From an uncultured Desulfobacterales bacterium (lineage in GTDB: Bacteria; Desulfobacterota; Desulfobacteria; Desulfobacterales; SpSt-501), in the NCBI GenBank assembly GCA_938048455.1, contig CALIUY010000016.1:14796-78795 (forward strand): 64,000 bases of DNA, given 5' to 3'. The notes beneath the pieces are model-generated. The model had not been told where the DNA came from. It ran no database searches and saw nothing but the letters and a program-made list of their open reading frames with translations. The position numbers and the translations under genes are program-made. Numbering within the stretch: position 1 is the stretch's first letter; every line of letters begins with the position of its first letter. This document shows positions 610 to 19,679 of the stretch, in pieces.

Positions 610-2052
610 TCAAGCGGAAGGCTTTTCCTTGCCCTCCCGGGGTTGACGCGATGCGGACGGCTGAAGGGCCTGCCGCAGGATTTCGATCGGGTGGCGGACG
701 GGATAGGAGAGAAGCTGCTCGAACTGCAGTCTGCAGCTCAGGCAATCGGTTACGATCGCCTGAGGATGGATCTCCCGAATGCGGCGCATCAAACGGTCGC
801 CGAGTGCGATCGAGGCCTCGTGAAAATCCTGTTTGAACCCCATCACGCCGGCCAGACCGCAGCAATGGAGGTTTCCCTCGAGAGCGGTCGGCTCCAGTTC
901 CGGTACCCGCCGCAGCAGCTCAAGGTAAGGCCGGCCGAACTGCTGCTCCCGCTGATGGCAGGGTGGATAGTAAAGGGCCTGCAACCGGAGCGGGGAAAAT
1001 CCCTGCGGTCCTTCGCCCTCCCGCTCACGCTGCAGAAGGTATTCGCCGACGTCGTAGACTTTCTCGGCGACGGCGATGCGCTGCAGGGGGTCGAGCCCCG
1101 AGAAATAGCCGTCGTCTTTCAGGATGTTTTTGAACATGGCGCGGTCGAAGACTTCCATCCCGCCCACGGGCCGCCCCCCCGCCCGGGCGCGCGCCGGCAC
1201 CTGGATAAAACGCGCGTCGGCCCCCACGCGCTGCTGATAGGCTTCGGAAAAATAAGCCCCCTCGGCGAGCAGCCCGCGCAGCATGAAGCTGCAGGTCGGG
1301 CAGGAGCAGAGAATGTCGTATCCCTCCTCCACCGCCGCGGAAAGGACGGCAAGGTTTTGGGCCGCGGCCCGCAGGGTGAACTCGCGGTCGCCCTCGAGGA
1401 AGGAAGGCATGCCGCAGCAAGAAAGCGGCGGGCAGAAAACGGTCAACCCCCAAGCCTGCAAAACCTCGACCGTGGAGCGAGCGACCTCCGGGAAAAGGTA
1501 GGTCGCCGTGCAGCCCGCAAAATAGACGACCCGCCTTCCTTCCGCAGCCTGCGGTTTTCGGTCAAGCCCGCGTTTCCGCACCCAGGCCAGGAAATTCTCC
1601 TTGGAGAAAGCGGGAAGCCGGCGCTCGGAATGGATCCCGAGCCACCGCTTCAGACGCTTTCCCATCCGCGGAGAGGAGAGCAGCCGGTCGGTCATTCGCG
1701 GGAAAGCGCCGCAGATTCTCCCGAGCCGAGCGACATCTTCAATCAGGCGCACGCGCGGGGGAAGCCCGTCGCGGGCGACGAAAGCGGTCTTGGCGCGGAT
1801 GATGTCCGCGCGGATGTTGGGGCAGGGGCAAAGCGCACAGAAATTGCACTTCTCGACCATGCCGCGCAGTTCATCGGAGGAGGGCTTACGGCCGGTCTCC
1901 ATTTCCCGATCATGGAGACGGTAAAGCTCGGGGAAAAAGAGACAGGCCTCGTCCAGAATCGGGCGGCAGCAGTCGCAATCGGCGCAGTCGCGGATAATCC
2001 TCCGCGCGATCTCTTCCGGCACGGCCGCTGGGGGGGAATCCTTCGCCTTCAT
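610..2052 (-). CDS. HdrD/GlpC-like Fe-S oxidoreductase with two CCG domains
   Basis: ORF 610..2277 trimmed to ATG 2052 (GAGGA 6 nt upstream; the longer N-terminus is S/G/R-rich). Two ferredoxin-type Cys clusters (CADCDCCRP, CNFCALCPCP) are followed by two CCG motifs (LSCCGMP, LHCCGLAG). Confidence 0.85.
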   Translation of the reverse strand: MKAKDSPPAAVPEEIARRIIRDCADCDCCRPILDEACLFFPELYRLHDREMETGRKPSSDELRGMVEKCNFCALCPCPNIRADIIRAKTAFVARDGLPPRVRLIEDVARLGRICGAFPRMTDRLLSSPRMGKRLKRWLGIHSERRLPAFSKENFLAWVRKRGLDRKPQAAEGRRVVYFAGCTATYLFPEVARSTVEVLQAWGLTVFCPPLSCCGMPSFLEGDREFTLRAAAQNLAVLSAAVEEGYDILCSCPTCSFMLRGLLAEGAYFSEAYQQRVGADARFIQVPARARAGGRPVGGMEVFDRAMFKNILKDDGYFSGLDPLQRIAVAEKVYDVGEYLLQREREGEGPQGFSPLRLQALYYPPCHQREQQFGRPYLELLRRVPELEPTALEGNLHCCGLAGVMGFKQDFHEASIALGDRLMRRIREIHPQAIVTDCLSCRLQFEQLLSYPVRHPIEILRQALQPSASRQPREGKEKPSA

Positions 2053-2059
2053 GATATCC

Positions 2060-2371
2060 TCAGGTTTCGGGCCGCCGGGGATGCACGAAAAGCCGCCAGC
2101 AGCCGTAATCTCCCATGTACACGGGAAGAATCCCCCCCTCCGGTGGGATCTCCTCGAGAAGCCGGCGCTCGATGAACAGCTCGATTCCGGCCGCTTGCAA
2201 CCGTTCGCAGGATCGATGGTCCAAGGGCTTGCCGATCCGACCGATCGGCCCATCGACTCCGTGTCATCAGCCGACAACGGTCTTGCCGGAGAAGACGCTC
2301 AGGATGCCTCCCCGGTCGGCGATGAACAGCTGCTGTTCTTTAGAAAGCTCGATGCTCCAGGATCGTTTCAC
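2060..2371 (-). CDS. Candidate selenoprotein with vicinal Sec-Sec (UU), possibly thioredoxin/ArsD-like fold
   Basis: The frame starts at GTG 2371 (GTGA overlap with the arsR stop) and ends at TGA 2060-2062. It contains two consecutive in-frame TGA codons at 2264-2269 (codons 35-36). Translation: MKRSWSIELSKEQQLFIADRGGILSVFSGKTVVG-U-U-HGVDGPIGRIGKPLDHRSCERLQAAGIELFIERRLLEEIPPEGGILPVYMGDYGCWRLFVHPRRPET. Protein-like composition continues in the same frame across the TGAs, and a hairpin at 2225-2251 follows. Alternative reading: a 34-aa peptide ended by a tandem stop. Confidence 0.5.
2225..2251 (-). promoter_or_regulatory. Candidate bacterial SECIS hairpin after the tandem UGA
   Basis: RNA GGGCCGAUC-GGUCG-GAUCGGC (7 bp, GU-containing 5-nt loop; a further GG/CC closure is possible). 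It starts 12 nt after the second UGA. Confidence 0.4.
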
Positions 2372-2787
2372 CGCCTCCCCCTTCCCCGGCCTGGCGCTTC
2401 GCCGGCCCGCAACGGGCGTTGTCGGACCGGGCCCGGGGCCGGCAGATCGCAACGGGCCTTCCGACGCCAAACCTCCGCCGACCTTTCGCGCCGCCCCGGA
2501 CTCGACGAAGCATCCTGCAGGCGGGCGCGGACGACGGAAAGCGCCTGCCTGACCGCAGGTGCGGCTTGCCGTCCGATTCGCCGGTAATACATCCAGCGGC
2601 CCCGTTTCTCCGCCGCCACCAGCCCCGCACGCCGCAGGATACCCATGTGCTGCGAGACCGTGGACGGCGCCAGCCCAAGCAGCTGCGCCACCTCGCACGC
2701 ACAGAGTTCTCCGTCCTCGAGAGCGAAAAGCACGCGCAGACGGTTTTCGTCGGCGAGCGCCCGAAGAAGATGGACGAGATCCCTCAT
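2368..2787 (-). CDS. arsR: ArsR/SmtB-family metalloregulator
   Basis: LRALADENRLRVLFAL..GELCACEVAQLLGLAPSTVSQHMGILRRAGLV is a winged HTH with a CxC site in the ELCxCE position. The last ~45 aa are R/P/G-rich and look unusual. Confidence 0.85.
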   Translation of the reverse strand: MRDLVHLLRALADENRLRVLFALEDGELCACEVAQLLGLAPSTVSQHMGILRRAGLVAAEKRGRWMYYRRIGRQAAPAVRQALSVVRARLQDASSSPGRRERSAEVWRRKARCDLPAPGPVRQRPLRAGEAPGRGRGRR

Positions 2788-2847
2788 CCCGTTATCCTGT
2801 CCGTTCCCGGCGGCGGAAGCAGGCTGACACCCCGAGGCCGGCTCCGC

Positions 2848-3942
2848 TCAGGGCTTGCAACTCAGGTAGCACACCCCCGCCGGCGTCTCGATCGCGTAAG
2901 GGAAATATTTCTTGCGGAAAGCAAGCGCCACGTTGACCAGGCTGATCAAGATCGGCACCTCGAGCAAGGGCCCGATGACGGTGGCAAAAGCCTGTCCGGA
3001 ATGGATGCCGAAGATGGCCACGGCCACCGCGATGGCCAGTTCGAAGTCGTTGCTGCCGGCGGTGAACGATACGGTGGTGGTCTGGGCGTAGTTCGACTTG
3101 ATTTTGTAGGCGATGAAAAAGGTCACAAACCACATCAGGAAGAAATAGATGGCCATCGGCAACGCGACGATCAACACATCGAGCGGCGTTTTGACGATCT
3201 TGTCGCCCTGGAGCGAAAACATGACGATGATGGTGAAGAGCAGGGCGACCAAGGTGATCGGCGAAATTTTGGGGATAAAGCGGGTTTCATACCATTCTCG
3301 GCCCTTGGCCTTGAGAAGCGAAAACCGGGTCACCACCCCCCCGATAAAGGGGATGCCCAGATAGATGAACACCGTCTTGGCGGCTTCGCCCATGGAGATG
3401 CTCACATCCAGACCCTTCACCAGCCCGAGCCAGTTCAGCCCGAGGGTGATGAAGAGATAAATCATCGGCGCGTAAAAAAGGACCTGAAAAACGGCGTTGA
3501 AGGCGACGAGCCCGACCGCCAGCTCGCGGTCGCCTTCCGCCAGTTCGTTCCAAACGATCACCATGGCGATGCAGCGGGCGAGGCCGACCAGGATGACTCC
3601 GATCATGTACTCCGGATGGTGGCGCAAGAAGAGAATCGCCAGCACGAACATCACCAGCGGCCCGATGACCCAATTCTGCAACAAGGAGATGACCAGCAGC
3701 CTTTTGTGCTGCAGCACCTTGCCCATCTCTTCGTATTTCACCTTTGCCAGCGGAGGATACATCATCAAAATCAGGCCGATGGCGATGGGAATCGAAGTGG
3801 CCCCGATTTGCATGCCGGATATGATCTGCGTGGCCGCCGGGAGGTAGTATCCCATCAGGATCCCCGTTGCCATGGCGAGGAAAATCCAAAGCGTAAGAAA
3901 GCGGTCCAGAAAGTTCAGGCGCTGGATATTCGTCGCTGCCAT
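2848..3942 (-). CDS. acr3: ACR3-family arsenite efflux transporter
   Basis: ORF 2848..3996 trimmed to ATG 3942 (AAGGAGG 6 nt upstream). [16 protein letters not shown]...[18 protein letters not shown] is typical of the Acr3/ArsB(ACR3) family. Polytopic membrane protein. Confidence 0.9.
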
Positions 3943-3994
3943 CGCGGCCTCCTTTCCAACGCGCCCGCGCGGCTTTCGCACCGGCGCGATGAAC

Positions 3995-4014
3995 ATTTCG
4001 TCGGGGAACGAAAT
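3995..4014. promoter_or_regulatory. Inverted repeat ATTTCGT-N6-ACGAAAT, candidate ArsR operator
   Basis: Perfect 7-bp arms that overlap the -10 element and predicted start site of the acr3 promoter. Confidence 0.55.
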
Positions 4015-4040
4015 ATAGAGAAGCCGAAAAATTCTGTCAA
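4012..4040 (-). promoter_or_regulatory. Sigma70-type promoter of the acr3-arsR operon
   Basis: Reverse strand TTGACA-17 nt-TATATT, about 70 nt upstream of ATG 3942. Confidence 0.65.
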
Positions 4041-4131
4041 GCGCCGGCGACGCGGGAAAAAAGGCGACGAGGGGGGTGCAGAACTCGAACCGAACTGCCG
4101 AAGGATGCGGTGGCCGGCCCGCAAAAGCGCC

Positions 4132-7353: not shown

Positions 7354-7493
7354 CGCCGTTTACCCCACACCGGTGTCGCCCACCCGAAGAGCCTCCGATG
7401 CAACCGGGCGAAGATTGTTCACCCCGGATTCCGAAGCCGCCGATCTCCTCGTTGATATCCTCATTCGGCTCAGGCGAAGCGGTTCGCGCTTGG

Positions 7494-7584
7494 GGAGGCC
7501 TCGCAGCGCTCCTCGAACGGCGCTCTCCCCGCCAAGGGGCCGGCGCCGGGACGAGCGACTTTCTCCGGACAGCGCGAGGCCTCC
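7494..7584. repeat. 11-bp inverted repeat GGAGGCCTCGC / GCGAGGCCTCC separated by 69 nt
   Basis: Arms at 7494-7504 and 7574-7584, in the spacer between the SelW-like stop and the cfa start. Confidence 0.5.
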
Positions 7585-7606
7585 TCCGTGGAGCTTCGCC
7601 GCCCGT

Positions 7607-7909
7607 TTAGGCCATGGGGAAAAACCCCCGCTTCTCCAGCTTCCTTCCGGGAAGGAGCCGGGCGTGAGGAAGGATCTTCAGCAGAACCTCTTCGTCCATC
7701 GGCAGCCGGCGGCATGACCCCTGGTTGCTGAAAATCACCTCGTCTTCGAGGCTCACCTCGAAGATCCCGTTGTGTCCGTCCACGAGTTCGGCCCGGAGAC
7801 CGAAGAAGGCTTCGATGGCTGCAGCCAGACTGACCGCACGTTCACGAAAGCCTCACTCCAAGCAGTAGACAATGCGGATGCGGGGCTTACCGCCCGTCTG
7901 CGATTCCAT
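7607..7909 (-). CDS. SelW/SelT/SelH (Rdx) family selenoprotein, CxxU
   Basis: Missed by the ORF track because of an in-frame TGA at 7853-7855 (codon 19). ATG 7909 has AAGGAG 8 nt upstream; TAA is at 7607-7609. Translation: MESQTGGKPRIRIVYCLE-U-GFRERAVSLAAAIEAFFGLRAELVDGHNGIFEVSLEDEVIFSNQGSCRRLPMDEEVLLKILPHARLLPGRKLEKRGFFPMA. This fits the Rdx pattern I.YCxx(C/U)..RA...L....G..G.FEV...ifS....R.P...E. Confidence 0.8.
7808..7852 (-). promoter_or_regulatory. Candidate bacterial SECIS element of the SelW-like gene
   Basis: Immediately after the UGA: lower stem GGCUUUCG/CGAAGCC, enclosing the upper hairpin GCGGUC-AGUCU-GGCUGC (7821-7837, GU in the loop). Confidence 0.45.
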
Positions 7910-7943
7910 AGGTCGTTCTCCTTTCCGAAGAAGATTTTGGATT

Positions 7944-8237
7944 TCAGGCGAAAATCCGCCGCAGGGCCTCTTCCAACGGGCCCCATTCGTTTTCGAGCAC
8001 CTCGATGCCGCGGGCCCTGAGCCATTCCCTGTGAAAGCTCCAGATCCCGTTACATACCACTTTGCGCACTCCCCGTTCCACGAGAAACCGACAGACCTCC
8101 CAGGGGTCCTCGGCGTGCAGCTCCTGGAATTTCGGGCTCCGATCGCCCTTCAGCCCCTCGAGGAACAACACCTCGTCGCAAAACCCGAAGCAGGGGGCGA
8201 TCCGCTTGTTCAAGAGGATCACGGCGATCCGATCCAC
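7944..8237 (-). CDS. NifX/NifB-C-terminal-like (dinitrogenase FeMo-cofactor-binding fold) protein
   Basis: DRIAVILLNKRIAPCFGFCDEVLFLEG...VRKVVCNGIWSFHREWLRARGIEVL resembles the NifX-like family. The maximal ORF is 7944..8345. I prefer GTG 8237 (alternative ATG 8276) because a -24/-12 promoter lies at 8293-8307, inside the long ORF. Confidence 0.65.
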   Translation of the reverse strand: MDRIAVILLNKRIAPCFGFCDEVLFLEGLKGDRSPKFQELHAEDPWEVCRFLVERGVRKVVCNGIWSFHREWLRARGIEVLENEWGPLEEALRRIFA

Positions 8238-8292
8238 TTCCACCTCGCCTTGCCGGTTTCCCCGGGAGCGTCCCATCGCGTCCGCAGGGACA

Positions 8293-8307
8293 GCAAAAAC
8301 GATGCCT
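8293..8307 (-). promoter_or_regulatory. Sigma54 (-24/-12) promoter for the NifX-like/SelW-like operon
   Basis: Reverse strand AGGCATCGTTTTTGC: GG and GC with the canonical 10-nt spacing. Confidence 0.6.
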
Positions 8308-8440: not shown

Positions 8441-8461
8441 ATGTTTCACCCGTTGAAACAT
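8441..8461. promoter_or_regulatory. Palindrome ATGTTTCA-N5-TGAAACAT, candidate activator-binding site (UAS)
   Basis: Perfect 8-bp arms. Centred about 150 nt from both divergent -24/-12 promoters (8293-8307 and 8596-8610). Confidence 0.55.
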
Positions 8462-8595: not shown

Positions 8596-8610
8596 CGGCA
8601 TAAGCTTTGC
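8596..8610 (+). promoter_or_regulatory. Sigma54 (-24/-12) promoter for the radical SAM gene
   Basis: CGGCATAAGCTTTGC with canonical GG-N10-GC spacing, 53 nt before ATG 8663. Confidence 0.6.
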
Positions 8611-8662
8611 TTGACTCCTGTCGCAGGACGCCGCGTGTCCCTAGCGAAAAGGAGGTTCAGGA

Positions 8663-9817
8663 ATGGCGACGCAAACCTCGGCCGACGTCCCACGGACCCC
8701 CTTTTTTGTCCGCAAAGCCCCTGTCCCGACAATCGGAGACACCCCGCTTAGGCGGACGAGCCGATTCCGTCGCGCCTGCCGCAGTTGGCTTTTCCCCTAC
8801 TTGCGGTCGCGTCTGGCGGCCGACGGGTTCCACCCCGTACTGTCCTTTTTCTACACCGACCTCAATTGCAACCTGAATTGCAGCTACTGTTACAGCCGGG
8901 GGAAAAACATCCCCGGGATGAGCTGGGAAACGGCTTGCGCCGCCGTGGAGTGGCTCGAGCGACAGGGCTGCCGGGTGCTCGCCTACATGGGGGGAGAGCC
9001 CCTGGTGCGCAAGTCCTTCATCGTCGAGCTCACACGCCTGGCGGCGGACAAGGGCTTCTTCGTCTATCTGCCGACCAACGGCATCCTCATGGACCGCGAC
9101 TTCATCGACGCGATCGGTGAAGCCGGAATCGCCGCCGTGAACCTCGCCGTCGACGCCATGGACGGCTATGCGGGGATTCCCAAGAACCTGAAACGCATCC
9201 TGCCGCAGTTCGAATACCTCGTCGAGCAGGAAAAACGCTACGGCTACCACACCTTTCTCAACATCAACATCACCGGCAAGAACGTCGAAGACGTGATGGC
9301 GCTGACGGAAACGGCTCATCGCTATGGGATCGCGACCGATTACCACATCAGCGAGCCGCCGCCGATCGAATACGAGGGCTTCGATCCCTCCCGAACCGAT
9401 GTCTGGATCCACGAATCGCAGATCGCCGCCGTCGACGAGCTGATCGACTGGCTGATCGCCAAAAACCGTGCCGGCTACACCATGGTCAACTCGATCGCCC
9501 ACCTGCAGGCGATGAAACGCTTCATCCGCCGCGAACTTCCTCCCTGGCCTTGCCAGGCGGGGCGGATCTCCATGGTCATCCGGCTGGACGGGAGCTTCGC
9601 CCCCTGTTTCGAGTATTACGCGAGCCAGGAGGACTGGGGCGACTTCCTTCGGGGACCGCGATTCGACGGCGAGCGGCTCGCGCGCCTCAAGGCGCGCTGC
9701 AGCCCGGGGTGCCTCTCGACCTGCAACTTCCAGGTCAGTCACTATTCGCAGTCCTGGCTGCGCTCGCTCCAGTGGGTGGCCAAACACGCCTACTCGCAGT
9801 GGTTCGGGGTCTCCTGA
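8663..9817 (+). CDS. Radical SAM protein with Cys-rich (SPASM/twitch-like) C-terminus
   Basis: CNLNCSYC (CxxxCxxC) after an N-terminal basic segment; C-terminal CQAG..APCFEYY..CSPGCLSTC. AAGGAGG lies upstream of the ATG. Confidence 0.85.
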   Translation: MATQTSADVPRTPFFVRKAPVPTIGDTPLRRTSRFRRACRSWLFPYLRSRLAADGFHPVLSFFYTDLNCNLNCSYCYSRGKNIPGMSWETACAAVEWLERQGCRVLAYMGGEPLVRKSFIVELTRLAADKGFFVYLPTNGILMDRDFIDAIGEAGIAAVNLAVDAMDGYAGIPKNLKRILPQFEYLVEQEKRYGYHTFLNINITGKNVEDVMALTETAHRYGIATDYHISEPPPIEYEGFDPSRTDVWIHESQIAAVDELIDWLIAKNRAGYTMVNSIAHLQAMKRFIRRELPPWPCQAGRISMVIRLDGSFAPCFEYYASQEDWGDFLRGPRFDGERLARLKARCSPGCLSTCNFQVSHYSQSWLRSLQWVAKHAYSQWFGVS

Positions 9818-9842: not shown

Positions 9843-10763
9843 TTATGCGCCGTCCGCGGGGGGAGCCGCACAGCTCCCCCCGCGGACGAGAAGTACCGGT
9901 TTGTCGCTGTATTCGGCAACGTTGCGCGAAACCGAACCCCAGAGAATCCCCTTCACCCGTCCCTTGCCGTGGGTGCCCATGAAGACGAGGGTGACGTCTT
10001 CCCCGCGGGCAAGCTGAAGCAGGGCCGCACGCGGATTGCCCACGGCAAGCCGCGTGCGCACGGCAAACCCTTCGGATCGCAAGCGCTGCTCCGTTTCTTC
10101 CAGCCGGCGGCGGTCGATTCGTTCGAATTCCCGGAATTTCTCCTCCGGCTGCAAGGACATGGCCTTTTCCTCCATGACATGGACCACCACGATCTCCCCG
10201 ATCCCGGAGCCCTTCAAGCGGCAAAGCGCCTCCAGGGCCGCGCGCGAGCACTCCGACCAATCGACGGGAAACAGGACGCGGCGGAAGGGATCCCGACAGG
10301 CGGCGCCCTCCGGGGATACCCGGCCGCCGTAAACTTCGGGGCACTTGGGGATGTAGACGGGAAAGCTGCCGTAGCGGACGAGGCGGTCGGTGGTCGAGCC
10401 GAAGAGAATTTCATCGAACCCGCTGCGGCGCTCGCGCCCGCTGACGATCAGGGAAACGTTCTCTTCATCGGCCACCTGGAGAATCCGGCGCCAGGGAACT
10501 CCGATCTCGATCCGGACCTTCGCCCGCAGTCCCTGCGCCTCGGCGATGCGGACCGCCTCATCCATCCGCGAGGAGAGCTCCGCCGCCAGGGAATCGAGCA
10601 TCTGCCGGGCGTGTCGCCCCTTCACGGGAAAATGCTCATCGGCTTGGATCACATGCACCAAAACGATCTCTTCGGTTCCGACACGCCGCAGGTTGGTGAC
10701 ACAGCCGAAGACCTCCCGGTAATAGGCCTCCAGGGCCGTGGCATAGAGAATCCTGCGGAACAT
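9843..10763 (-). CDS. Tandem universal stress protein (UspA-domain x2)
   Basis: Two Usp-like repeats (ILYATAL..LVHV and VLFPVDWSE..VVHV..GTHGKGRVKGILWGSVS). AAGGAGGGG lies upstream of ATG 10763. Confidence 0.85.
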   Translation of the reverse strand: MFRRILYATALEAYYREVFGCVTNLRRVGTEEIVLVHVIQADEHFPVKGRHARQMLDSLAAELSSRMDEAVRIAEAQGLRAKVRIEIGVPWRRILQVADEENVSLIVSGRERRSGFDEILFGSTTDRLVRYGSFPVYIPKCPEVYGGRVSPEGAACRDPFRRVLFPVDWSECSRAALEALCRLKGSGIGEIVVVHVMEEKAMSLQPEEKFREFERIDRRRLEETEQRLRSEGFAVRTRLAVGNPRAALLQLARGEDVTLVFMGTHGKGRVKGILWGSVSRNVAEYSDKPVLLVRGGSCAAPPADGA

Positions 10764-10809
10764 ATCCCCTCCTTCTTGTCAGCGCAAGGCCGCCTGTGAC
10801 TCGCCAGGA

Positions 10810-10824
10810 GCAACTCCGGTGCCA
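10810..10824 (-). promoter_or_regulatory. Sigma54 (-24/-12) promoter for the usp gene
   Basis: Reverse strand TGGCACCGGAGTTGC (consensus TGGCAC-N5-TTGC), 47 nt before ATG 10763. Confidence 0.7.
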
Positions 10825-10921: not shown

Positions 10922-10940
10922 ATGTTTCAAGCCCTGAAAC
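10922..10940. promoter_or_regulatory. Palindrome ATGTTTCA-N5-TGAAAC, second copy of the candidate UAS
   Basis: Same half-sites and spacing as 8441-8461. Lies between the divergent -24/-12 promoters at 10810 and 11087. A further TGTTTCC...TGAAACA pair follows at 10941-10972. Confidence 0.55.
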
Positions 10941-11086
10941 TGTTTCCGCGGTCAGCACCCCCTGATGAAACAAGGTCGTGCTTTCCCCCTTTCCCAGGGG
11001 AGAGCCCGAACCGATCGCCTCGCCGGAGTCCGCGGCGCACGCCCCGCGACTCGAACCCGAGTCCAGATCCCTTTCGGGAAAAACTC

Positions 11087-11101
11087 TGGCACAGGTGTTG
11101 C
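11087..11101 (+). promoter_or_regulatory. Sigma54 (-24/-12) promoter for the TauE-family gene
   Basis: TGGCACAGGTGTTGC, 48 nt before ATG 11149. Confidence 0.75.
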
Positions 11102-11148
11102 TCTCTTCGGCAATGATCGTGCTTTTTCGAGCCAAAGGAGGAAGACCC

Positions 11149-12060
11149 ATGAACAGCAGCCGAGATTCCACGTGGCGCAACTACCTCCCTTCGGGCATAC
11201 TGCTGGCGATCCTGATCGTCCTTACCGCCTGGTCCTTTGCCATCGGCATCGCCGCACGCGGAGGTCCTCCGGTCGATGCCGGCCGAGGGCTCGCTCTGGT
11301 CATCATCGGATTGGCCGCGGGCTTCTTGGGGGGCATCATCGGCACCGGCGGCTGCAGCGTGATGCTTCCCGCCATTCATTTCTGGATGGGCTATTCCACG
11401 CCGGTCGCCGTCGGCACGACCCTCTTTGCGGTCATTTTCACGGCGATCTCCGGCGGCTACGGGCACCTCGTCCGACGCAATCTGGACGTGAGCGCCACCC
11501 TTTGGCTGGGCGGAGCGGGGATCGTGGGCGTGTTGATCGGCTCCTGGCTTTTCACCCTGCTCAGCCGCCAGATCGCTCTTTTGGGATTGATCCTCGGACT
11601 GGCTTTTCTCTGGCCGGCTGGCCGCATGATCTGGGAAGGACTCCGCAAGGGGACGCATCCCGCTGCGGAAGGAAACCGCATCCCGCGCCACACCGGCGGC
11701 TGGATCGCGTTCGGATTCCTGATCGGCATTTTCACCGGCATCGTCGGGCTGGGAGGCGGCTACGCCCTGGTACCGGGGCTGATCTATCTTTTCGGCGCTC
11801 CGGTCTATGTCACCATGGGGACTTCGCTCGCCACGATGATCCCGCTGGCCGTTGTGGGCGGCGGGATCAAGCTGATCCAGGGCTACGTCGCCATTGGAGC
11901 CGGGCTGCTTCTGGCCGCGGGGACGGTCGTCGGCGCCCAGATCGGGGCGGCGGTGATCAAGAAGTTCAAGCCGGCGACCCTGAAGCTGATCTTCGGCGTT
12001 TACTTTCTCTACGTCGCCGTGAAGTTCGTGCTGGCCTATTTCGGCATTCAGATCTTCTGA
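11149..12060 (+). CDS. TauE/SafE (DUF81) family anion exporter
   Basis: ORF 10978..12060 trimmed to ATG 11149 (AAAGGAGG upstream). Duplicated G-rich TM motifs (GFLGGIIGTGG and GIVGLGGG). Confidence 0.85.
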   Translation: MNSSRDSTWRNYLPSGILLAILIVLTAWSFAIGIAARGGPPVDAGRGLALVIIGLAAGFLGGIIGTGGCSVMLPAIHFWMGYSTPVAVGTTLFAVIFTAISGGYGHLVRRNLDVSATLWLGGAGIVGVLIGSWLFTLLSRQIALLGLILGLAFLWPAGRMIWEGLRKGTHPAAEGNRIPRHTGGWIAFGFLIGIFTGIVGLGGGYALVPGLIYLFGAPVYVTMGTSLATMIPLAVVGGGIKLIQGYVAIGAGLLLAAGTVVGAQIGAAVIKKFKPATLKLIFGVYFLYVAVKFVLAYFGIQIF

Positions 12061-13216: not shown

Positions 13217-13588
13217 CTACTTTTTCTCCTGATCCGCGAGCACCTTGAGCATCTCCGCCCTCAGGTTGCTCGACTCCTGCTGGAGCTCATCGATCAGATC
13301 AAAGATCTCCTTCTGCAACGCCGCCACTTTGGCCTGATCCGGGTTCGGGGTGAGCATCAAGGTTCTCAGCTCCATCTTCTTGCTGAAGAGCTGTTGCTGA
13401 AGGGGAACGGTTTTTTCCTGGTGTGCCTGCTGGAGCGCCAGAATCCGGGTGGACTGCTCCGGGGTGAGGTTCTGAACCATCGGCCCCATGCCGTAGAACC
13501 TGCCGCCCCAGGGCCCTGCGAAAGCTGCGGAAGCCACCAGTGTCAACGCCAGGGTGAGACTCAGTGCGGTCAAGGCTTTCTTTTTCAT
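13217..13588 (-). CDS. ZraP/CpxP/Spy-family periplasmic protein (paralogue 1)
   Basis: Trimmed to ATG 13588 (GGGAGG upstream). Signal peptide MKKKALTALSLTLALTLVASAAFA, Gly-rich GPWGGRFYGMGP, LTPEQ (LTxxQ) motif. Confidence 0.8.
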   Translation of the reverse strand: MKKKALTALSLTLALTLVASAAFAGPWGGRFYGMGPMVQNLTPEQSTRILALQQAHQEKTVPLQQQLFSKKMELRTLMLTPNPDQAKVAALQKEIFDLIDELQQESSNLRAEMLKVLADQEKK

Positions 13589-13634
13589 TTTTTCCTCCCT
13601 TTCCTGAATCGTGGGATTCCACGTCCTTATTTGT

Positions 13635-14093
13635 CTACCATCGGCCATACATGCGGCCGCCCTTGCCGAATCCGCCGCCGTAGCCCAAGCCGGGCATCAG
13701 GGCGAGCTGCTCCGGAGTCAGCAGTTTCCGGACCGCCAGCTGATGCTGCGTAGCCTTCTCGCGCAGCTTCGCCTCGAGCTCCAGGACCTCACGCTGCTTG
13801 GCATTGATCTTGCCCGCATCCGGATTGGGCTGGGACCACAGAAGCCGCATTTCCGTCCGTTTGCTGAAGAGCTGGCTCTGCAGCGGAGCGATTTCCTCAT
13901 AGTAAGATCGCCTCAGGTCCTGGATTTTCTGCGCCTGCTCGGGGGTGAGGTTGGGGGCCCCGGCATAAGGCACGCCATAGCCCGGGCCCATGCCGCCGCG
14001 CCCCCATCCGCCCATTCCGCCCGGGCCGGCGACAGCCCACGAAGCGACCAGAACCAGCGCCGCTGCGATAATAAGCGTGTGTGTTCTTTTCAT
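13635..14093 (-). CDS. ZraP/CpxP/Spy-family periplasmic protein (paralogue 2)
   Basis: Trimmed to ATG 14093 (AAGGAGG upstream). Signal peptide, Gly-rich N-terminus, two LTPEQ motifs, Gly-rich C-terminus ending GRMYGRW, similar in style to the E. coli ZraP tail as I recall it. Confidence 0.8.
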   Translation of the reverse strand: MKRTHTLIIAAALVLVASWAVAGPGGMGGWGRGGMGPGYGVPYAGAPNLTPEQAQKIQDLRRSYYEEIAPLQSQLFSKRTEMRLLWSQPNPDAGKINAKQREVLELEAKLREKATQHQLAVRKLLTPEQLALMPGLGYGGGFGKGGRMYGRW

Positions 14094-14134
14094 TGCGATC
14101 ATCCTCCTTTCGCTGGGGTTCTGCCGCTCTTCTT

Positions 14135-14150
14135 TGCAGGTCACATGCCA
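14135..14150 (-). promoter_or_regulatory. Sigma54 (-24/-12) promoter for ZraP-like paralogues 2 and 1
   Basis: Reverse strand TGGCATGTGACCTGCA, about 40 nt before ATG 14093. Confidence 0.75.
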
Positions 14151-14300
14151 GAAGCGCTACAAAAGAAAGGATGATCTATAACGCATTGAAATATATTGTA
14201 TAATTATCTACTGCGGGAGTTGGCGGCGGGATCGGGATGGCGGAAAAAAATGTCGAGGATTTTAGCGCGGCTGAAGCCACGGTCGATCGATAAGTCTATT

Positions 14301-14311
14301 GTTTCAAGACA
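14301..14311. repeat. 11-mer GTTTCAAGACA (copy 1)
   Basis: Identical AT-rich 11-mer also at 15025-15035. This copy lies about 150 nt upstream of the 14135-14150 promoter. Confidence 0.5.
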
Positions 14312-14406
14312 TTATTTATTTCCTGGGGCTCGACAGAAAAAGAAGCGCGCGGGACTTGTGAACGTCGAATGACGAAAGAGAAGAGGAAAAGCGAAGCCGT
14401 TATCAG

Positions 14407-14425: not shown

Positions 14426-14436
14426 GCCGGAGGAAA

Positions 14437-16942: not shown

Positions 16943-18304
16943 ATGCAGGCGCTCGATATCCTGATCGCCGAAGACGAGCGCGTCCAGCGCGAAATGCTGC
17001 GCGATTTCCTCGCCGGCCAGGGCCATCGGGTCGTGGAGGCCGAGAACGGGGCCGTCGCTCTGGAAAAAATCAAGGCCGCGACCTTCGATCTCGCGATTTT
17101 GGATTACCGCATGCCCGACCGGACCGGCCTCGAGGTCCTCGAGGAGGCCCGTCGGCTCAACCCCGAGCTCGACGTGATTCTCCTGACCGCTTACGGCACC
17201 GTGGACAGCGCGGTGGCGGCCATGAAGGCGGGAGCGGCCGACTATCTCGGAAAGCCGCTCGACTTGGAGGAACTGCTGTGCGTGATCGAGCGCATCGCCC
17301 GCCACCGCACCCTGCAACGCGAAAACGAACGGCTCCGCGAACAGCTTGCCGAAACGGGTCTGAAACCCGAAGATCTCGTCTTCCGCAGCTCCCCGATGGC
17401 CGAACTCGTCAACCTCGCCGGCCGCGTCGCCGCCAGTCAAGCCACCGTTCTCCTGCGGGGGGAGAGCGGAACGGGAAAGGAGCTCTTCGCGCGCCTGATC
17501 CATCGCCTGAGCCCGCGCGCCGCCAAACCGCTCCTCATCGTGAACTGCGCCGCGCTCAGCGAAACCCTGATCGAAAGCGAGCTCTTCGGCCACGAGCGCG
17601 GCGCTTTCACCGGCGCCACCCAGCGCCGGATCGGCCGCTTCGAGCAGGCCGACGGCGGAACCCTCTTTCTCGACGAGATCGGGGACGTCTCCCCCGCCGT
17701 CCAGGTCAAGCTGCTGCGCCTGATCCAGGAGGGGGAATTCCAGCGCGTCGGCGGAAACCAGACGCTCCGGGCCGATGTGCGCCTGATCAGCGCGACTCAC
17801 CAGGATCTCGAGTCCAAAATCGCCTCCGGCGCCTTTCGGGAAGACCTCTACTATCGCTTGAACGTCGTTTCGCTGTCCATTCCGCCGCTCCGCGAGCGCC
17901 GCGCCGACATCCCGCCGCTTGTCGACCATTTCGTCACCCGCTTCGCCCGCGAAAACCGCAAGGCCCTAAAGGGGGTGAGCCGGGAAGCGATGGACCAGCT
18001 CGTCAAGTACGACTACCCGGGCAACGTGCGCGAGCTCGAAAACATCATCGAGCGGGCCGTCGTTCTCGCCCGCGGGGAGCTCATCACCACGGAGGAGCTG
18101 CCCTTCGGTCGTCGGCAGGCCGGCGAGGAATCTGCAGCCGTGCGGCAAAGCCTGCGTCAGGCTTTGGAACATCTCGAACGGCGCATGATCGCCGAGGCCT
18201 TGGAAGAAGCCGGCGGAAACCAGAGCCGCGCCGCGCAGCGGTTGGGTTTGAGCGAGCGGATGCTGCGCTACAAGCTGAAAAAGTACCGCCTCAAGCCGGC
18301 TTGA
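16943..18304 (+). CDS. Sigma54-dependent response regulator (NtrC/ZraR-like)
   Basis: Receiver (DLAILDYRMPDRTG), AAA+ (GESGTGKE, GAFTGA, FLDEIGD), Fis-type HTH (NQSRAAQRLGLSERMLRYKLKKY). Confidence 0.9.
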   Translation: MQALDILIAEDERVQREMLRDFLAGQGHRVVEAENGAVALEKIKAATFDLAILDYRMPDRTGLEVLEEARRLNPELDVILLTAYGTVDSAVAAMKAGAADYLGKPLDLEELLCVIERIARHRTLQRENERLREQLAETGLKPEDLVFRSSPMAELVNLAGRVAASQATVLLRGESGTGKELFARLIHRLSPRAAKPLLIVNCAALSETLIESELFGHERGAFTGATQRRIGRFEQADGGTLFLDEIGDVSPAVQVKLLRLIQEGEFQRVGGNQTLRADVRLISATHQDLESKIASGAFREDLYYRLNVVSLSIPPLRERRADIPPLVDHFVTRFARENRKALKGVSREAMDQLVKYDYPGNVRELENIIERAVVLARGELITTEELPFGRRQAGEESAAVRQSLRQALEHLERRMIAEALEEAGGNQSRAAQRLGLSERMLRYKLKKYRLKPA

Positions 18305-19679
18305 CCGGCGGGCTTTTGGGTTTCTCCCCGTTGGGAGAAAAGGGGGAGGAGAGGCCGTATTTGCGCATGCGTCGCCAGAGCGTCGTGCGGCTGATTCCGA
18401 GGGCGCGCGCCGCGGCGAGACGATTGCCCCGCAAGCCGGCAAGCACGGTACGGATCTTCTCGGCCTGAGCCGCGGTCTCCGGCGGCGGGCAACAGCGGCT
18501 TTCCGAGACCTCTTCCCGGATTTCCTGCGGCAGGTGTTCCGGCCGGATCAGCTTTTCGCGGCAAGTGACGAAAGCGTACTCGATGATGTTTTCGAGCTCG
18601 CGGATATTTCCGGGGAACGGATAGTCGAGAAGAAGATTCAACACCTCCGGGGCCACTCCCTGGATCTCCCGGCCCTTGATCATGTTGAACCGGCGCACAA
18701 CGTGGTCAACCAACAGGGGAATGTCCTCCCGGCGCTCGCGCAGCGGCGGGAGGCTCACCTTGACGACGTTCAGGCGGTAATAGAGATCTTCCCGGAACCG
18801 CCCCTCGCGCACCTGGGCCTTCAGGTCCAGGTTGGAGGCCGTCACCAGCCGAAAGTCGGATCGCCGCGGCCGGTTCGACCCGAGCGGGGTGAACACTCCG
18901 TCTTCGAGCACACGCAGCAGGTCGGCCTGGAACGCCGTCGAGGTGCTGCCGATTTCATCCAGAAACAGGGTTCCGCGGTCAGCGGCCAGGATCCGGCCGG
19001 ACTTGTCGCGCACGGCCCCCGTAAAGGCGCCCTTGGCGTAGCCGAAGAGCTCGGATTCAAGGAGCGTATCCGGCAGAGCGGCGCAGTTTACGGCGATGAA
19101 CGGGCCGTCGCTGCGCCGGCTGAGGCCGTGGATCGCCCGGGCGATCAGCTCCTTTCCCGAACCGGTCGGTCCCTCGATCAAAACCGCACTGTCGCTCACC
19201 GCGATGTCCGGCAAAAGAGCGAGCAGGGCGCGGATCCGCGGGTGGCGGCCGACAATGTCCTCCGGGGTATAACGCCGATCGATGTGGCGGCGAAGCTGCT
19301 CGATCTCGGTCAAGTCGCGCAGCGTCTCGACGGCCCCCAGGATCCGGCCGTTTTCGTCTTTCAGCGGGGCCACATTGAGGCGCACCATGACCCGTCCGCC
19401 GCCTTTGGCGATCAGGACGACGCGCTGATCGGCGGGGGGGCATTCGCCCTGCAGGCAGTCATCGAGGGGACAGCGGCGGGCGCACAGATCGGCCCGCAGG
19501 ACGTCGAAGCATTTGCGCCCCACGGCCTCGGCGGACGAAAAACCGGTGATCCGCTCGGCGGCGGGATTGAGGTAGGTGACCCGCTTTTGCGCGTCGATCG
19601 TGATCACGCCCTCGCTCACGCTCTCGACGATCGTGCAGCAGTGGGTGGGCGACAGGGTCAGGATGCGGAAACGCGCCAA
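18291..19679 (-). CDS. Sigma54-dependent activator with PAS domain and Cys cluster
   Basis: PAS (VSEGVITIDAQKRVTYLNPAAERITG), Cys cluster CFDVLRADLCARRCPLDDCLQGEC, AAA+ (GPTGSGKE, GAFTGA), C-terminal HTH (NRLAAARALGISRTTLWRRMRKYG). Confidence 0.9.
   Translation of the reverse strand: MARFRILTLSPTHCCTIVESVSEGVITIDAQKRVTYLNPAAERITGFSSAEAVGRKCFDVLRADLCARRCPLDDCLQGECPPADQRVVLIAKGGGRVMVRLNVAPLKDENGRILGAVETLRDLTEIEQLRRHIDRRYTPEDIVGRHPRIRALLALLPDIAVSDSAVLIEGPTGSGKELIARAIHGLSRRSDGPFIAVNCAALPDTLLESELFGYAKGAFTGAVRDKSGRILAADRGTLFLDEIGSTSTAFQADLLRVLEDGVFTPLGSNRPRRSDFRLVTASNLDLKAQVREGRFREDLYYRLNVVKVSLPPLRERREDIPLLVDHVVRRFNMIKGREIQGVAPEVLNLLLDYPFPGNIRELENIIEYAFVTCREKLIRPEHLPQEIREEVSESRCCPPPETAAQAEKIRTVLAGLRGNRLAAARALGISRTTLWRRMRKYGLSSPFSPNGEKPKSPPVKPA

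What the first reader, a model, noticed from the sequence alone, without database searches (positions are those of the whole stretch)
7607..7909. Hidden SelW/Rdx-family selenoprotein gene (CxxU), co-transcribed with a NifX-like gene
The six-frame track shows nothing here because of an in-frame TGA (7853-7855). The reverse frame from ATG 7909 (AAGGAG 8 nt upstream) to TAA 7607 gives a 100-residue protein. Its N-terminus, RIRIVYCLE-U-GF, and its core, G..GIFEVSLEDEVIFSNQG..RLPMDEEVL, match the Rdx (SelW/SelT/SelH) fold pattern, with Sec in the position of the second redox Cys.

A two-tier stem-loop follows the UGA directly: GGCUUUCG/CGAAGCC enclosing GCGGUC-AGUCU-GGCUGC. The gene lies 34 nt downstream of a NifX-like cofactor-binding-fold gene and behind a -24/-12 promoter. 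I do not know this pairing as a described unit.
Basis: partly seen in the sequence, partly recalled or inferred. Interest (0 to 1): 0.7.

Follow-up and report, generated by a model that had tools for sequence, protein, structure and literature searches.

The report
Hidden SelW-like selenoprotein gene, sigma-54 operon
A small redox protein gene that gene finders miss because it uses the stop codon TGA to encode selenocysteine is real and belongs to a long-known bacterial family, and it sits in a conserved sigma-54-controlled operon behind a NifX-like gene, a pairing I did not find described.

Summary
Window 7909..7607 (-) encodes a 100-residue protein with one in-frame TGA (7855-7853). With U read as C it passes the curated cut-offs of Pfam Rdx (PF10262) and NCBIfam TIGR02174 (SelT/SelW/SelH). 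The TGA is the second position of a C-L-E-U motif. At the same position, 84 of 85 homologous sites from metagenomes and one MAG carry TGA and one carries TGC. A hairpin 14 nt after the UGA (7838-7820, loop AGUCU) is conserved, with compensatory changes.

The upstream gene has a NifX/NafY/orange-protein fold (TM 0.65-0.77). NifX-like plus SelW-like adjacency recurs in at least six distinct lineages, but it is facultative. In all 11 fetched loci, plus the window, the NifX-like gene follows a -24/-12 promoter and the palindrome GTTTCA-N5-TGAAAC. In the window this palindrome occurs twice, between two divergent promoter pairs: radical SAM / NifX-SelW and Usp / TauE. The likely activator (18291-19679) is a PAS enhancer-binding protein with the Cys triad spacing of the Fe-S redox sensor OrpR.

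The selenoprotein is a new member of a family known since 2005. The regulon context appears undescribed. The Sec machinery could not be checked.

The parts
7607..7909 (-). SelW-like (Rdx family) selenoprotein CDS: 100 codons plus TAA stop. It has a CLEU redox motif (C16, U19) and a subfamily-specific C-terminal tail, LLPG-x10-FPMA.
   Evidence: Translation. Pfam PF10262 at 40.5 bits and TIGR02174 at 36.9 bits, both above cut-off. PDB sequence matches to MIEN1 2ljk (E 1.4e-5) and to the bacterial Rdx proteins 3dex and 2fa8. Orthologues in L001-L016, L084, L085 and L091.
7853..7855 (-). In-frame TGA read as selenocysteine (U19).
   Evidence: TGA at 84 of 85 homologous sites and TGC in L054. It aligns with the second Cys of the CxxC motif of MIEN1.
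7820..7838 (-). Conserved apical hairpin of the bacterial SECIS element: stem UGCGGUC/GGCUGCA, loop AGUCU (7831-7827). G26 of the loop is invariant. The hairpin starts 14 nt after the UGA.
   Evidence: Ungapped 18-sequence alignment A3: helix columns 18-24/30-36 are 84% paired and 3 pairs show compensatory changes. The hairpin is absent from the Cys homologue L054. Covariance model R1 gives a single hit in the window, at 7808-7855.
7806..7854 (-). The lower stem (GGCUUU, nt 4-9 after the U of UGA, with nt 43-48) is lineage-specific.
   Evidence: RNAfold. The lower helix is only 44% paired across the family.
7918..7923 (-). Ribosome-binding site AAGGAG, 8 nt before ATG 7909.
   Evidence: Read from the sequence. 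A purine-rich stretch lies in the same position in L001, L002 and L003.
7944..8243 (-). NifX/Orp-like small protein gene (PF02579 fold). The start is uncertain: GTG 8243 or GTG 8237 is preferred, while the gene caller used ATG 8276.
   Evidence: Pfam PF02579 at 24.2 bits, just below the cut-off of 26.3. AF2 model with pLDDT 85.5. Foldseek hits to PH0822, TM1290, TM1816, NifX, NafY and orange protein 2wfb at TM 0.65-0.77.
8292..8307 (-). Sigma-54 type -24/-12 promoter, AGGCATCGTTTTTGCT, for the NifX-like/SelW-like operon.
   Evidence: Pattern search. An equivalent element lies upstream of the NifX-like gene in 11 of 11 related loci.
8442..8460 (.). Palindrome TGTTTCA-N5-TGAAACA, a probable upstream activating sequence. 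It lies between the divergent radical SAM and NifX-like promoters.
   Evidence: Two occurrences in the window against 0.03 expected. It is present upstream of every NifX-like gene examined and absent from the 79 fetched loci that have no NifX-like gene upstream of SelW.
8596..8611 (+). -24/-12-like element CGGCATAAGCTTTGCT upstream of the radical SAM gene.
   Evidence: equivalent site in L084, with 1 mismatch.
8663..9817 (+). Radical SAM protein gene, divergent from the operon. No specific NCBIfam family was matched.
   Evidence: Syntenic in L001 and L084.
9843..10763 (-). Tandem universal stress protein (Usp) gene with a perfect -24/-12 site at 10824-10809.
10923..10941 (.). Second copy of the palindrome (TGTTTCAAGCCCTGAAACT), between the divergent Usp and TauE promoters.
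   Evidence: Two copies are likewise present in L001 and L003.
11149..12060 (+). TauE/SafE-family anion permease gene with a perfect -24/-12 site at 11087-11102.
18291..19679 (-). PAS / sigma-54 AAA+ / HTH_8 enhancer-binding protein, the probable activator of the regulon. Its PAS domain carries C-F-D-x6-C-x3-C.
   Evidence: Pfam. It is 60% identical over its full length to the EBP that directly precedes the NifX-SelW operon in L014. The Cys triad is found in all six EBPs next to NifX-like genes and has the same spacing as OrpR C52/D54/C61/C65.

Best explanation
Window 7909-7607 (-) is a genuine selenoprotein gene of the bacterial SelW-like branch of the Rdx (SelT/SelW/SelH) family.

**Recoding (anatomy shown, mechanism inferred).** The UGA at 7855-7853 is most likely recoded to selenocysteine. 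In the established bacterial mechanism, SelB carrying Sec-tRNA(Sec) binds a SECIS hairpin inside the coding sequence. Here the hairpin lies 14 nt downstream of the UGA (7838-7820) and has a G/U-containing apical loop.

**Protein chemistry (inferred from the family).** The product is a roughly 11-kDa thioredoxin-like oxidoreductase. Its C16-x-x-U19 pair would cycle between a selenolate/thiol form and a selenenylsulfide form.

**Transcription (inferred from anatomy).** The gene is the second cistron of an operon that begins with a NifX/orange-protein-like gene of the PF02579 fold. The operon is transcribed from a sigma-54 promoter at 8307-8292.

**Regulation (anatomy shown, binding and signal inferred).** That promoter, and three further sigma-54 promoters (radical SAM, Usp, TauE), are arranged as two divergent pairs. 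Each pair is centred on the palindrome TGTTTCA-N5-TGAAACA. This palindrome is probably bound by the PAS enhancer-binding protein at 18291-19679. The PAS domain of that protein has the Cys triad of OrpR, the Fe-S redox-sensing activator of Desulfovibrio vulgaris. By analogy, the regulon would be switched by redox potential or by a thiol- or Fe-S-reactive stress.

**Role (weakest step).** Within the regulon, the SelW-like protein most likely supplies low-potential thiol/selenol reducing power to a partner or small-molecule substrate.
For: - **Family membership:** PF10262 at 40.5 bits (cut-off 22.6) across the TGA. TIGR02174 at 36.9 bits (cut-off 34.2). Sequence matches to solved Rdx proteins MIEN1, SAV_2001 and Atu0228.
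- **Sec codon:** TGA at 84 of 85 homologous sites, one TGC homologue, and conserved coding sequence on both sides.
- **SECIS:** the apical helix is 84% paired, with 3 compensatory pairs and an invariant loop G. It is missing in the Cys homologue. Model R1 gives one hit in 64 kb and finds the held-out orthologues.
- **Gene-caller behaviour fits a Sec gene:** the database holds only 58-aa fragments, or no call at all.
- **No break in the operon:** the 34-nt spacer contains no terminator-like site and no sigma-70-like promoter on the minus strand.
- **NifX-like fold:**
- **Adjacency recurs:** window/L003, L001, L084, L091, L014 and L085/86.
- **Promoter plus palindrome:** present in 11 of 11 NifX-like loci. 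The palindrome occurs twice in the window against 0.03 expected, and only in loci that carry the NifX-like gene.
- **Activator:** 60% full-length identity between the window EBP and the operon-adjacent EBP of L014. The Cys triad is conserved in six EBPs and matches the published OrpR spacing.
Against: - No selA, selB, selD or tRNA-Sec lies in the 64-kb window, so Sec decoding capacity of this genome is unverified.
- The hairpin is thermodynamically only modestly better than shuffled sequence (z about -2). Its conservation is confounded with conservation of the encoded peptide R-A-x-x-L-A-A.
- The window's -24/-12 element has 2 mismatches and is not significant on its own.
- The adjacency is facultative. 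Four NifX-like lineages lack a SelW-like gene, and many SelW-like genes of the same subfamily lack a NifX-like neighbour. This argues against an obligate two-protein unit.
- The palindrome differs from the published OrpR site, GGGCGYRTTTTGCGCCC.
- The EBP lies 10 kb away in the window.
Confidence: 0.85

Rival explanations
1. The SelW-like protein and the NifX-like protein are a dedicated functional pair. The selenoprotein would reduce or load the metal-sulfur cofactor or cysteines of the NifX/Orp-like carrier, so the two work as one unit.
For: The two genes lie 34 nt apart with no terminator-like site between them. The adjacency is kept between lineages whose NifX-like proteins share only 33-53% identity. 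The window-lineage NifX-like protein has a C-x3-C motif (PCFGFCDE).
Against: The adjacency is absent in 4 of about 10 NifX-like lineages, where TauE or a radical SAM gene follows instead. It is also absent for most SelW-like genes of the same subfamily. The C-x3-C motif of the NifX-like protein is not conserved: in L014 and most of alignment A5 the sequence is HFGAS/HFGSS.
Confidence: 0.3
2. The SelW-like protein is a general thiol/selenol oxidoreductase or soft-metal(loid) binding protein of an envelope or metalloid stress response. It would be merely co-regulated with whatever genes the local regulon carries.
For: Subfamily members without a NifX-like neighbour sit beside a membrane rhodanese, MauE/DoxX, CcdA/DsbD-like, thioredoxin-like, DUF1573, ArsR, ACR3 and CDF genes. 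The window holds the same set at 21-26 kb, and ars genes (ACR3, ArsP) lie nearby. L084 has LMWPc (ArsC-type)/ACR3/ArsR downstream.
Against: No direct link to any metalloid was found. The protein has no signal peptide or membrane segment that would place it in the envelope (read from the sequence). Neighbourhoods of this kind are common in Desulfobacterota genomic islands.
Confidence: 0.45
3. The TGA is a true stop. The locus would then be a decayed gene, or two unrelated small ORFs (an 18-codon peptide and a 58-aa GTG-started ORF).
For: Gene callers report only the 58-aa fragment. The Sec machinery has not been shown for this genome.
Against: The Rdx profile aligns continuously across the TGA. 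TGA is conserved at 84 of 85 sites in independent assemblies, with purifying-type conservation of the 17-18 codons upstream, an ATG and an RBS. The TGA aligns with Cys in L054 and MIEN1. A conserved hairpin follows it.
Confidence: 0.03
4. TGA is reassigned genome-wide (an alternative genetic code) and is not recoded locally to Sec.
For: None specific.
Against: TGA terminates many well-supported genes in the window. These include the NifX-like gene itself and genes whose Pfam domains end just before the TGA. The in-frame TGA occurs exactly at a redox Cys position of a known selenoprotein family.
Confidence: 0.01

Closest known systems
Bacterial SelW-like selenoproteins (Rdx family; PF10262 / TIGR02174). 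Described by Zhang, Fomenko and Gladyshev in 2005 (PMC1088965) and by Zhang et al. in 2006 (PMC1794560). Listed as 'SELENOW-like, CxxU, 1 Sec' in the 2022 and 2026 reviews (PMC9312934, PMC13188914).
   Same: It has a CxxU motif after the first beta-strand, is about 100 aa long, and carries an in-frame UGA followed by a small hairpin with a G in the apical loop. The family is almost entirely Sec-containing, with few Cys homologues. It occurs in Deltaproteobacteria such as Desulfotalea and Geobacter sulfurreducens.
   Different: This subfamily carries a conserved C-terminal tail, LLPG-x10-FP[ML]A. In several lineages the gene is the second cistron of a sigma-54 operon behind a NifX-like gene. 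Sister sequences outside the window (L014, L085, L086) have UxxU instead of CxxU, a form the reviews do not list.
Eukaryotic SelW and MIEN1 (C17orf37), PDB 2ljk
   Same: MIEN1 is the best solved-structure sequence match (E 1.4e-5). The CxxC/U motif and the G-x-FE-[IV] core align.
   Different: Identity is low. MIEN1 has Cys where this protein has Sec. Eukaryotic SelW uses a 3'-UTR SECIS, whereas here the element lies inside the ORF.
Escherichia coli fdhF SECIS (from memory: minihelix with G23/U24 in the apical loop and a bulged U17)
   Same: It is a stem-loop that begins just after the UGA, with GU in a small apical loop, and the lower stem includes the UGA codon. The loop context CAGUCUG resembles the fdhF context CAGGUCUG (read from the sequence).
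   Different: The loop G/U lie at +26/+27, not +23/+24. There is no bulged U; instead a variable or mismatched pair sits in mid-stem. SelB binding was not tested.
OrpR/orp system of Desulfovibrio vulgaris Hildenborough (Fievet et al. 2021, PMC8359166; 2014, PMC3897727)
   Same: A sigma-54 enhancer-binding protein with an N-terminal PAS domain carrying C-x-[DE]-x6-C-x3-C. Divergent sigma-54 operons share a palindromic site. The target genes encode small PF02579 (orange-protein/NifX-like) proteins. The PF02579 content of the orp operons is from memory of Fievet et al. 2011, which is not held in the library.
   Different: The palindrome is different: GTTTCA-N5-TGAAAC here, GGGCGYRTTTTGCGCCC for OrpR. 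No Mrp/MinD-type ATPase genes are present. The cargo is instead a SelW-like selenoprotein, TauE, radical SAM, Usp and (in relatives) DGC-domain genes. In the window the EBP lies 10 kb from its presumed targets.

Membership tests
Rdx / SelT-SelW-SelH family (PF10262, TIGR02174) | Profile HMM score above the curated cut-off over most of the domain | tested here: met
   PF10262 scores 40.5 bits against 22.6, with residues 10-75 matching profile positions 1-68 of 74. TIGR02174 scores 36.9 bits against 34.2.
Rdx / SelT-SelW-SelH family (PF10262, TIGR02174) | CxxC or CxxU redox motif directly after the first beta-strand | tested here: met
   R-I-R-I-V-Y-C16-L-E-U19-G-F. It aligns with the CEPC motif of MIEN1.
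Rdx / SelT-SelW-SelH family (PF10262, TIGR02174) | Thioredoxin-like alpha/beta fold | not testable with these tools
Only sequence similarity to solved Rdx structures is available.
NF041051 SelTWH_Campy (equivalog) | Score above the equivalog cut-off | tested here: not met
   53.7 bits against a cut-off of 88. The protein is not a member of this specific equivalog.
Bacterial Sec-decoded gene | In-frame UGA that aligns with Cys in homologues and is conserved among orthologues, with coding conservation on both sides | tested here: met
   84 of 85 sites carry TGA and 1 carries TGC. Alignment A1 supports this.
Bacterial Sec-decoded gene | SECIS stem-loop immediately 3' of the UGA, with a G in a small apical loop (features as stated in PMC1088965) | tested here: met
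   The helix at nt 18-24/30-36 is 84% paired, with 3 compensatory pairs and an invariant loop G26. It is absent in the Cys homologue.
Bacterial Sec-decoded gene | selA, selB, selC (tRNA-Sec) and selD present in the genome | not testable with these tools
   None lies in the 64-kb window.
Bacterial Sec-decoded gene | Selenium actually incorporated into the protein | not testable with these tools
   This needs 75Se labelling or mass spectrometry.
NifX/NafY/orange-protein family (PF02579) | Pfam score above the gathering cut-off | tested here: not met
   24.2 bits against a cut-off of 26.3 for the 133-aa ORF. The database's precomputed annotation does list PF02579 for the 110-aa call P0003 and for nearly all relatives.
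NifX/NafY/orange-protein family (PF02579) | Ribonuclease-H-like alpha/beta fold shared by NifX, NafY core, TM1290 and ORP | tested here: met
   AF2 model with pLDDT 85.5. Foldseek matches to 2yx6 (TM 0.77), 1rdu, 1o13, 9ian_F (NifX), 1p90 (NafY) and 2wfb (ORP, TM 0.71).
NifX/NafY/orange-protein family (PF02579) | Binds a metal-sulfur cofactor | not testable with these tools
   This needs biochemistry.
OrpR-type sigma-54 regulon | EBP with PAS + sigma-54 AAA+ + HTH_8 domains, whose PAS domain carries the Fe-S Cys triad C52/(D/E)54/C61/C65 | tested here: met
   Domain hits. C-F-D-x6-C-x3-C is present in the window EBP and in five EBPs next to NifX-like genes. The spacing follows PMC8359166. No direct alignment to OrpR was possible because its sequence is not held.
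OrpR-type sigma-54 regulon | OrpR binding motif GGGCGYRTTTTGCGCCC upstream of the targets | tested here: not met
   The conserved palindrome here is GTTTCA-N5-TGAAAC.
OrpR-type sigma-54 regulon | Targets are -24/-12 promoters in front of PF02579 genes | tested here: met
   Found in 11 of 11 loci, and in the window at 8307-8292.

The most novel reading that the evidence does not exclude
The NifX-like/SelW-like operon is the core of a previously undescribed regulon that is widespread in Desulfobacterota. The regulon is run by an OrpR-like Fe-S/PAS sigma-54 activator through the palindrome GTTTCA-N5-TGAAAC. It couples a selenocysteine (CxxU, and in sister lineages UxxU) Rdx oxidoreductase to an orange-protein/NifX-type cofactor carrier, a TauE anion permease, a radical SAM enzyme and a DGC-domain protein. 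Together these would form a low-potential pathway for handling a metal-sulfur cofactor or a toxic chalcogen or metalloid species. That would give the first physiological context for bacterial SelW-like proteins and for Orp-like proteins.
Probability: 0.3. Interest if true: 0.6.

Novelty: new member of a known kind. Interest (0 to 1): 0.4.

Why it matters
**Annotation.** The gene is invisible to standard gene callers. The public protein collection holds only 58-residue fragments of its orthologues, or nothing at all. This is a concrete case of systematic under-annotation of selenoproteins.

**Biology.** Bacterial SelW-like proteins and small PF02579 (orange-protein/NifX-like) proteins both lack an established function. 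Here they are found as consecutive cistrons under a conserved sigma-54 promoter. The upstream site is sharply defined, and the probable activator looks like an Fe-S redox sensor. This gives a testable handle on three things:
- when the proteins are made;
- which regulator controls them;
- which genes they work alongside (TauE, radical SAM, Usp, DGC).

The selenoprotein itself is not a surprise to a specialist.

Tried and rejected
- **Rfam:** no family matched at gathering threshold over the window. A permissive scan of 7550-8000 gave nothing relevant. None of the Rfam families matched the hairpin.
- **Other selenoprotein genes in the window:** same-frame ORF pairs separated by one stop, and TGA codons flanked by coding-like GC3 on both sides, gave no other convincing candidate.
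- **Sec machinery:** a Pfam survey of about 40 ORFs found no selA, selB or selD, and ARAGORN found no tRNA.
rejected, because only 44% of cells pair.
- **The response-regulator-type EBP (16601-18304) as the operon's activator:** rejected in favour of the PAS EBP. It matches the L014 operon-adjacent EBP only in the AAA+/HTH part (42%, against 60% over the full length for the PAS EBP).
- **A second Sec codon at the end of the soil-clade proteins:** rejected, because the stop is TAG or TAA.
- **A remnant of the DGC gene in the 253-nt gap after the SelW-like gene:** not found. Only a paralogue exists, at 27449-27895.
- **Fievet et al. 2011 (PMC3133258):** not held in the library.
Full report
**1. 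The observation**

On the minus strand, ATG 7909 to TAA 7609-7607 reads MESQTGGKPRIRIVYCLE*GFRERAVSLAAAIEAFFGLRAELVDGHNGIFEVSLEDEVIFSNQGSCRRLPMDEEVLLKILPHARLLPGRKLEKRGFFPMA*. The only internal stop is TGA 7855-7853. AAGGAG (7923-7918) lies 8 nt before the ATG. The upstream ORF stops at TGA 7946-7944, which leaves a 34-nt spacer. A mechanical ORF list shows only a 58-aa GTG-started remnant at 7607..7783.

**2. Family**

With U replaced by C, the protein hits Pfam Rdx (PF10262) at E = 3.3e-10 and 40.5 bits, against a cut-off of 22.6. Residues 10-75 cover profile positions 1-68 of 74, so the match runs straight across the TGA. NCBIfam TIGR02174 (CXXU_selWTH) scores 36.9 bits against a cut-off of 34.2. 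The Campylobacter equivalog NF041051 is below its cut-off, at 53.7 against 88. Among solved structures, the best sequence matches are:
- human MIEN1/C17orf37 (2ljk, E = 1.4e-5), whose CEPC motif aligns with C-L-E-U;
- the bacterial Rdx proteins SAV_2001, Atu0228 and others.

**3. Is the TGA conserved?**

The word-indexed protein search returned only two relatives, both 58-aa C-terminal fragments. Their contigs show the same in-frame TGA, with an ATG 15-18 codons upstream.

A GTDB scan found one MAG, an uncultured Desulfatibacillum sp., whose orthologue is 92% identical and has the same layout. A metagenome scan gave 80 further loci. Across these, 84 of 85 homologous sites carry TGA at the Sec position and one (L054) carries TGC. 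The codons upstream of the TGA are conserved as protein: R-I-R-I-x-Y-C-[LV]-E.

This agrees with the literature. SelW-like proteins with CxxU were the most abundant selenoprotein family in the Sargasso Sea data. They have few Cys homologues, and they occur in Desulfotalea, Geobacter sulfurreducens and other bacteria (PMC1088965, PMC1794560). Reviews from 2022 and 2026 list the family as 'SELENOW-like, PF10262, CxxU, 1 Sec'.

**4. The SECIS element**

Its stability is only modest: z about -2, and 9 of 200 shuffles fold as well.

An ungapped alignment was made of the 48 nt starting at the UGA, from 18 non-identical family members. It shows the following:
- The apical helix (nt 18-24 with 30-36; window 7838-7820) is paired in 84% of cells.
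- Three of its pairs show changes on both sides: 18-36 as U-A/C-G/G-C, 21-33 as G-U/C-G/U-G, and 22-32 as G-C/U-A.
- The 5-nt loop is [AG]G[UG][CU]U, with G26 invariant.

The Cys homologue has no such hairpin. A covariance model of the apical hairpin hits the window once (7808-7855, 55 bits). It also recovers held-out orthologues (L091, L085, L086, L005, L016), but not the Cys homologue or loci without the gene.

One caveat applies. The hairpin overlaps the conserved peptide R-A-x-x-L-A-A, so RNA and protein constraints cannot be fully separated.

**5. The upstream gene**

The ORF at 7944-8243 is weakly PF02579, at 24.2 bits against a cut-off of 26.3. The gene caller starts it at 8276, but GTG 8243 or 8237 is more plausible given the promoter position. 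A profile search found a subfamily of about 45 proteins of 100-120 aa, all annotated PF02579. An AF2 model built on 56 sequences has pLDDT 85.5. Its best PDB matches are PH0822, TA1041, TM1290, TM1816, NifX in the NifEN complex, the NafY core, MJ0327 and the Desulfovibrio gigas orange protein, at TM 0.65-0.77. 'NifX-like' is therefore correct at the fold level.

**6. Does the pairing recur?**

A SelW-like gene follows the NifX-like gene directly in:
- the window and L003;
- L001 (which is the same contig as L004);
- L084 (the same sequence as L002);
- L091;
- the second copy in L014;
- L085/L086.

The NifX-like proteins in these loci are 33-89% identical to the window's.

The pairing is absent in four other NifX-like lineages. 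TauE follows in L087, L089 and L094, and a radical SAM/SPASM gene follows in L092.

Conversely, many SelW-like genes of the same tail-bearing subfamily have no NifX-like neighbour. They sit instead beside a membrane rhodanese, MauE/DoxX, CcdA-like, thioredoxin-like, DUF1573, ArsR, ACR3 or CDF genes. The window has that same set at 21-26 kb. The adjacency is therefore real and old, but facultative.

**7. Promoter and regulon**

On its own it is not significant, because 18 two-mismatch hits occur in the window against 20 expected.

In 11 of 11 related loci, however, the NifX-like gene is preceded by two elements:
- a GG-N10-GC element 42-115 nt before the start codon, several of which are perfect TGGCAC-N5-TTGC;
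- the palindrome GTTTCA-N5-TGAAAC, starting 90-140 nt upstream of the -24/-12 element.

The palindrome occurs twice in the window against 0.03 expected:
- at 8442-8460, between the divergent radical SAM and NifX-like genes;
- at 10923-10941, between the divergent Usp and TauE genes. Both of those genes have perfect -24/-12 sites, at 10824-10809 and 11087-11102.

The same four promoters are present in L084. Among the 84 loci fetched up to that point, the exact palindrome occurs only in those that carry the NifX-like gene.

**8. The activator**

A PAS/sigma-54/HTH_8 enhancer-binding protein lies directly upstream of the NifX-like gene in L014, L085, L087 and L092. The window's PAS EBP (18291-19679) is 60% identical over its full length to the L014 protein. 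The neighbouring response-regulator EBP matches only in the AAA+ part.

All six EBPs examined carry C-x-[DE]-x6-C-x3-C in the PAS domain. This is exactly the spacing of C52, D/E54, C61 and C65 of OrpR. OrpR is the [4Fe-4S] redox-sensing sigma-54 activator of the D. vulgaris orp operons (PMC8359166). OrpR's published binding site is different (GGGCGYRTTTTGCGCCC), and no Mrp/MinD ATPases are present here. I therefore call this an OrpR-like system, not a member of the orp system.

**9. How it most likely works**

Shown:
- the gene, its family, the conserved UGA and the conserved hairpin;
- the conserved promoter and palindrome architecture;
- the fold of the neighbouring protein.

Inferred from established knowledge:
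- SelB-dependent Sec insertion at the UGA;
- a CxxU selenenylsulfide redox cycle;
- co-transcription with the NifX-like gene, since no terminator-like site or promoter-like site lies in the 34-nt spacer;
- activation by the PAS EBP at the palindrome.

Inferred by analogy only: control by redox potential through an Fe-S cluster.

The physiological substrate is unknown. I rate a general thiol/selenol oxidoreductase role within a stress regulon (0.45) somewhat above a dedicated NifX-like partner role (0.3), because the adjacency is facultative.

**10. What could not be done**

The selenoprotein could not be modelled.

**11. Verdict**

The selenoprotein is a new member of a family described twenty years ago, so it is of low surprise by itself. 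The conserved sigma-54/OrpR-like regulon context and the NifX-like pairing appear undescribed: no paper in the library holds both 'selenoprotein W' and 'NifX'. These give the finding moderate interest. A UxxU variant seen in sister loci outside the window is a small extra novelty.

Noticed in passing
L014 8064-8075; L085 6390-6401; L086 (same motif, near 1183-1194): The SelW-like genes that follow NifX-like genes in these three metagenome contigs read Y-TGA-V-[ED]-TGA-G-F. Both redox positions are TGA (UxxU) ahead of a single downstream SECIS-like hairpin. The 2022 and 2026 selenoproteome reviews list SELENOW-like proteins only as CxxU with one Sec.
   Followed up: partly
window 8442-8460 and 10923-10941; promoters at 8292-8307(-), 8596-8611(+), 10809-10824(-), 11087-11102(+): Two copies of the palindrome TGTTTCA-N5-TGAAACA each sit between a divergent pair of sigma-54-type promoters: radical SAM / NifX-SelW, and Usp / TauE. 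This looks like a compact four-transcript regulon, and it is conserved in L001, L003 and L084.
   Followed up: yes
window 18291-19679 (-): This PAS sigma-54 enhancer-binding protein has C-F-D-x6-C-x3-C, the Cys-triad spacing of the Fe-S redox sensor OrpR. It also has an HCC motif 40 residues upstream. It sits directly downstream of a radical SAM/SPASM gene (19762-21036) that resembles tungsten-cofactor oxidoreductase maturases but scores below the cut-off.
   Followed up: partly
window 21052-26204 (-): This cluster holds DsbC-like thioredoxin, rhodanese, a MauE-DUF1573 fusion, CDF transporter and CcdA/DsbD-TM genes. The MauE-DUF1573 fusion matches NCBIfam NF041425 'OS_HP2 family (seleno)protein' above cut-off, and here it has no in-frame TGA. 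The same gene set directly flanks SelW-like genes in L005, L006, L009, L012 and L014.
   Followed up: partly
window 1-4131 and 28894-30378; L084 15035-20102: Arsenic-resistance-type genes surround the locus. In the window these are an ACR3 arsenite efflux gene (2848-4131, equivalog), ArsP-type permeases (1-609 and 28894-30378) and a GlpC/CCG-domain protein (610-2298). The relative L084 also carries LMWPc (ArsC-type) and ArsR genes.
   Followed up: no
window 7354-7606: A 253-nt non-coding gap lies between the SelW-like gene and the cyclopropane fatty-acid synthase gene. In L001 and L084 a DGC-domain gene (PF08859) occupies this position. The window and L003 lack it, and only a 31%-identical paralogue exists, at 27449-27895 (-).
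   Followed up: partly
window 13217-18304: Three tandem Metal_resist/LTXXQ (Spy/ZraP-like) genes lie next to a histidine kinase and a response-regulator sigma-54 activator, a ZraSR-like arrangement. The same genes flank the locus in L084.
   Followed up: no
window 31850-40136: A Cache/GAF sigma-54 activator is followed by a perfect -24/-12 site (34376-34391), two unannotated ORFs, an NrfD-type membrane subunit and a 1105-aa molybdopterin oxidoreductase. A further sigma-54 activator lies at 50657-53122, and a second TauE gene at 53564-54727.
   Followed up: no
L017-L083 (about 65 soil metagenome contigs): This is a very uniform clade of short (about 75 aa) SelW-like selenoproteins with the motif IQIRYCGE-U-NYLPQASSLQAAIK. 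It has its own hairpin variant, GGCCUCC-AGUUU-GCAGGCC. The genes end at a true TAG or TAA stop. The neighbourhoods were not examined.
   Followed up: no
P0001, P0002 (58 aa); L084 10321-10623: Public gene calls for orthologues are either truncated to the 58-residue part downstream of an internal GTG or ATG, or missing altogether. As a result the family is nearly invisible to protein-level searches.
   Followed up: yes
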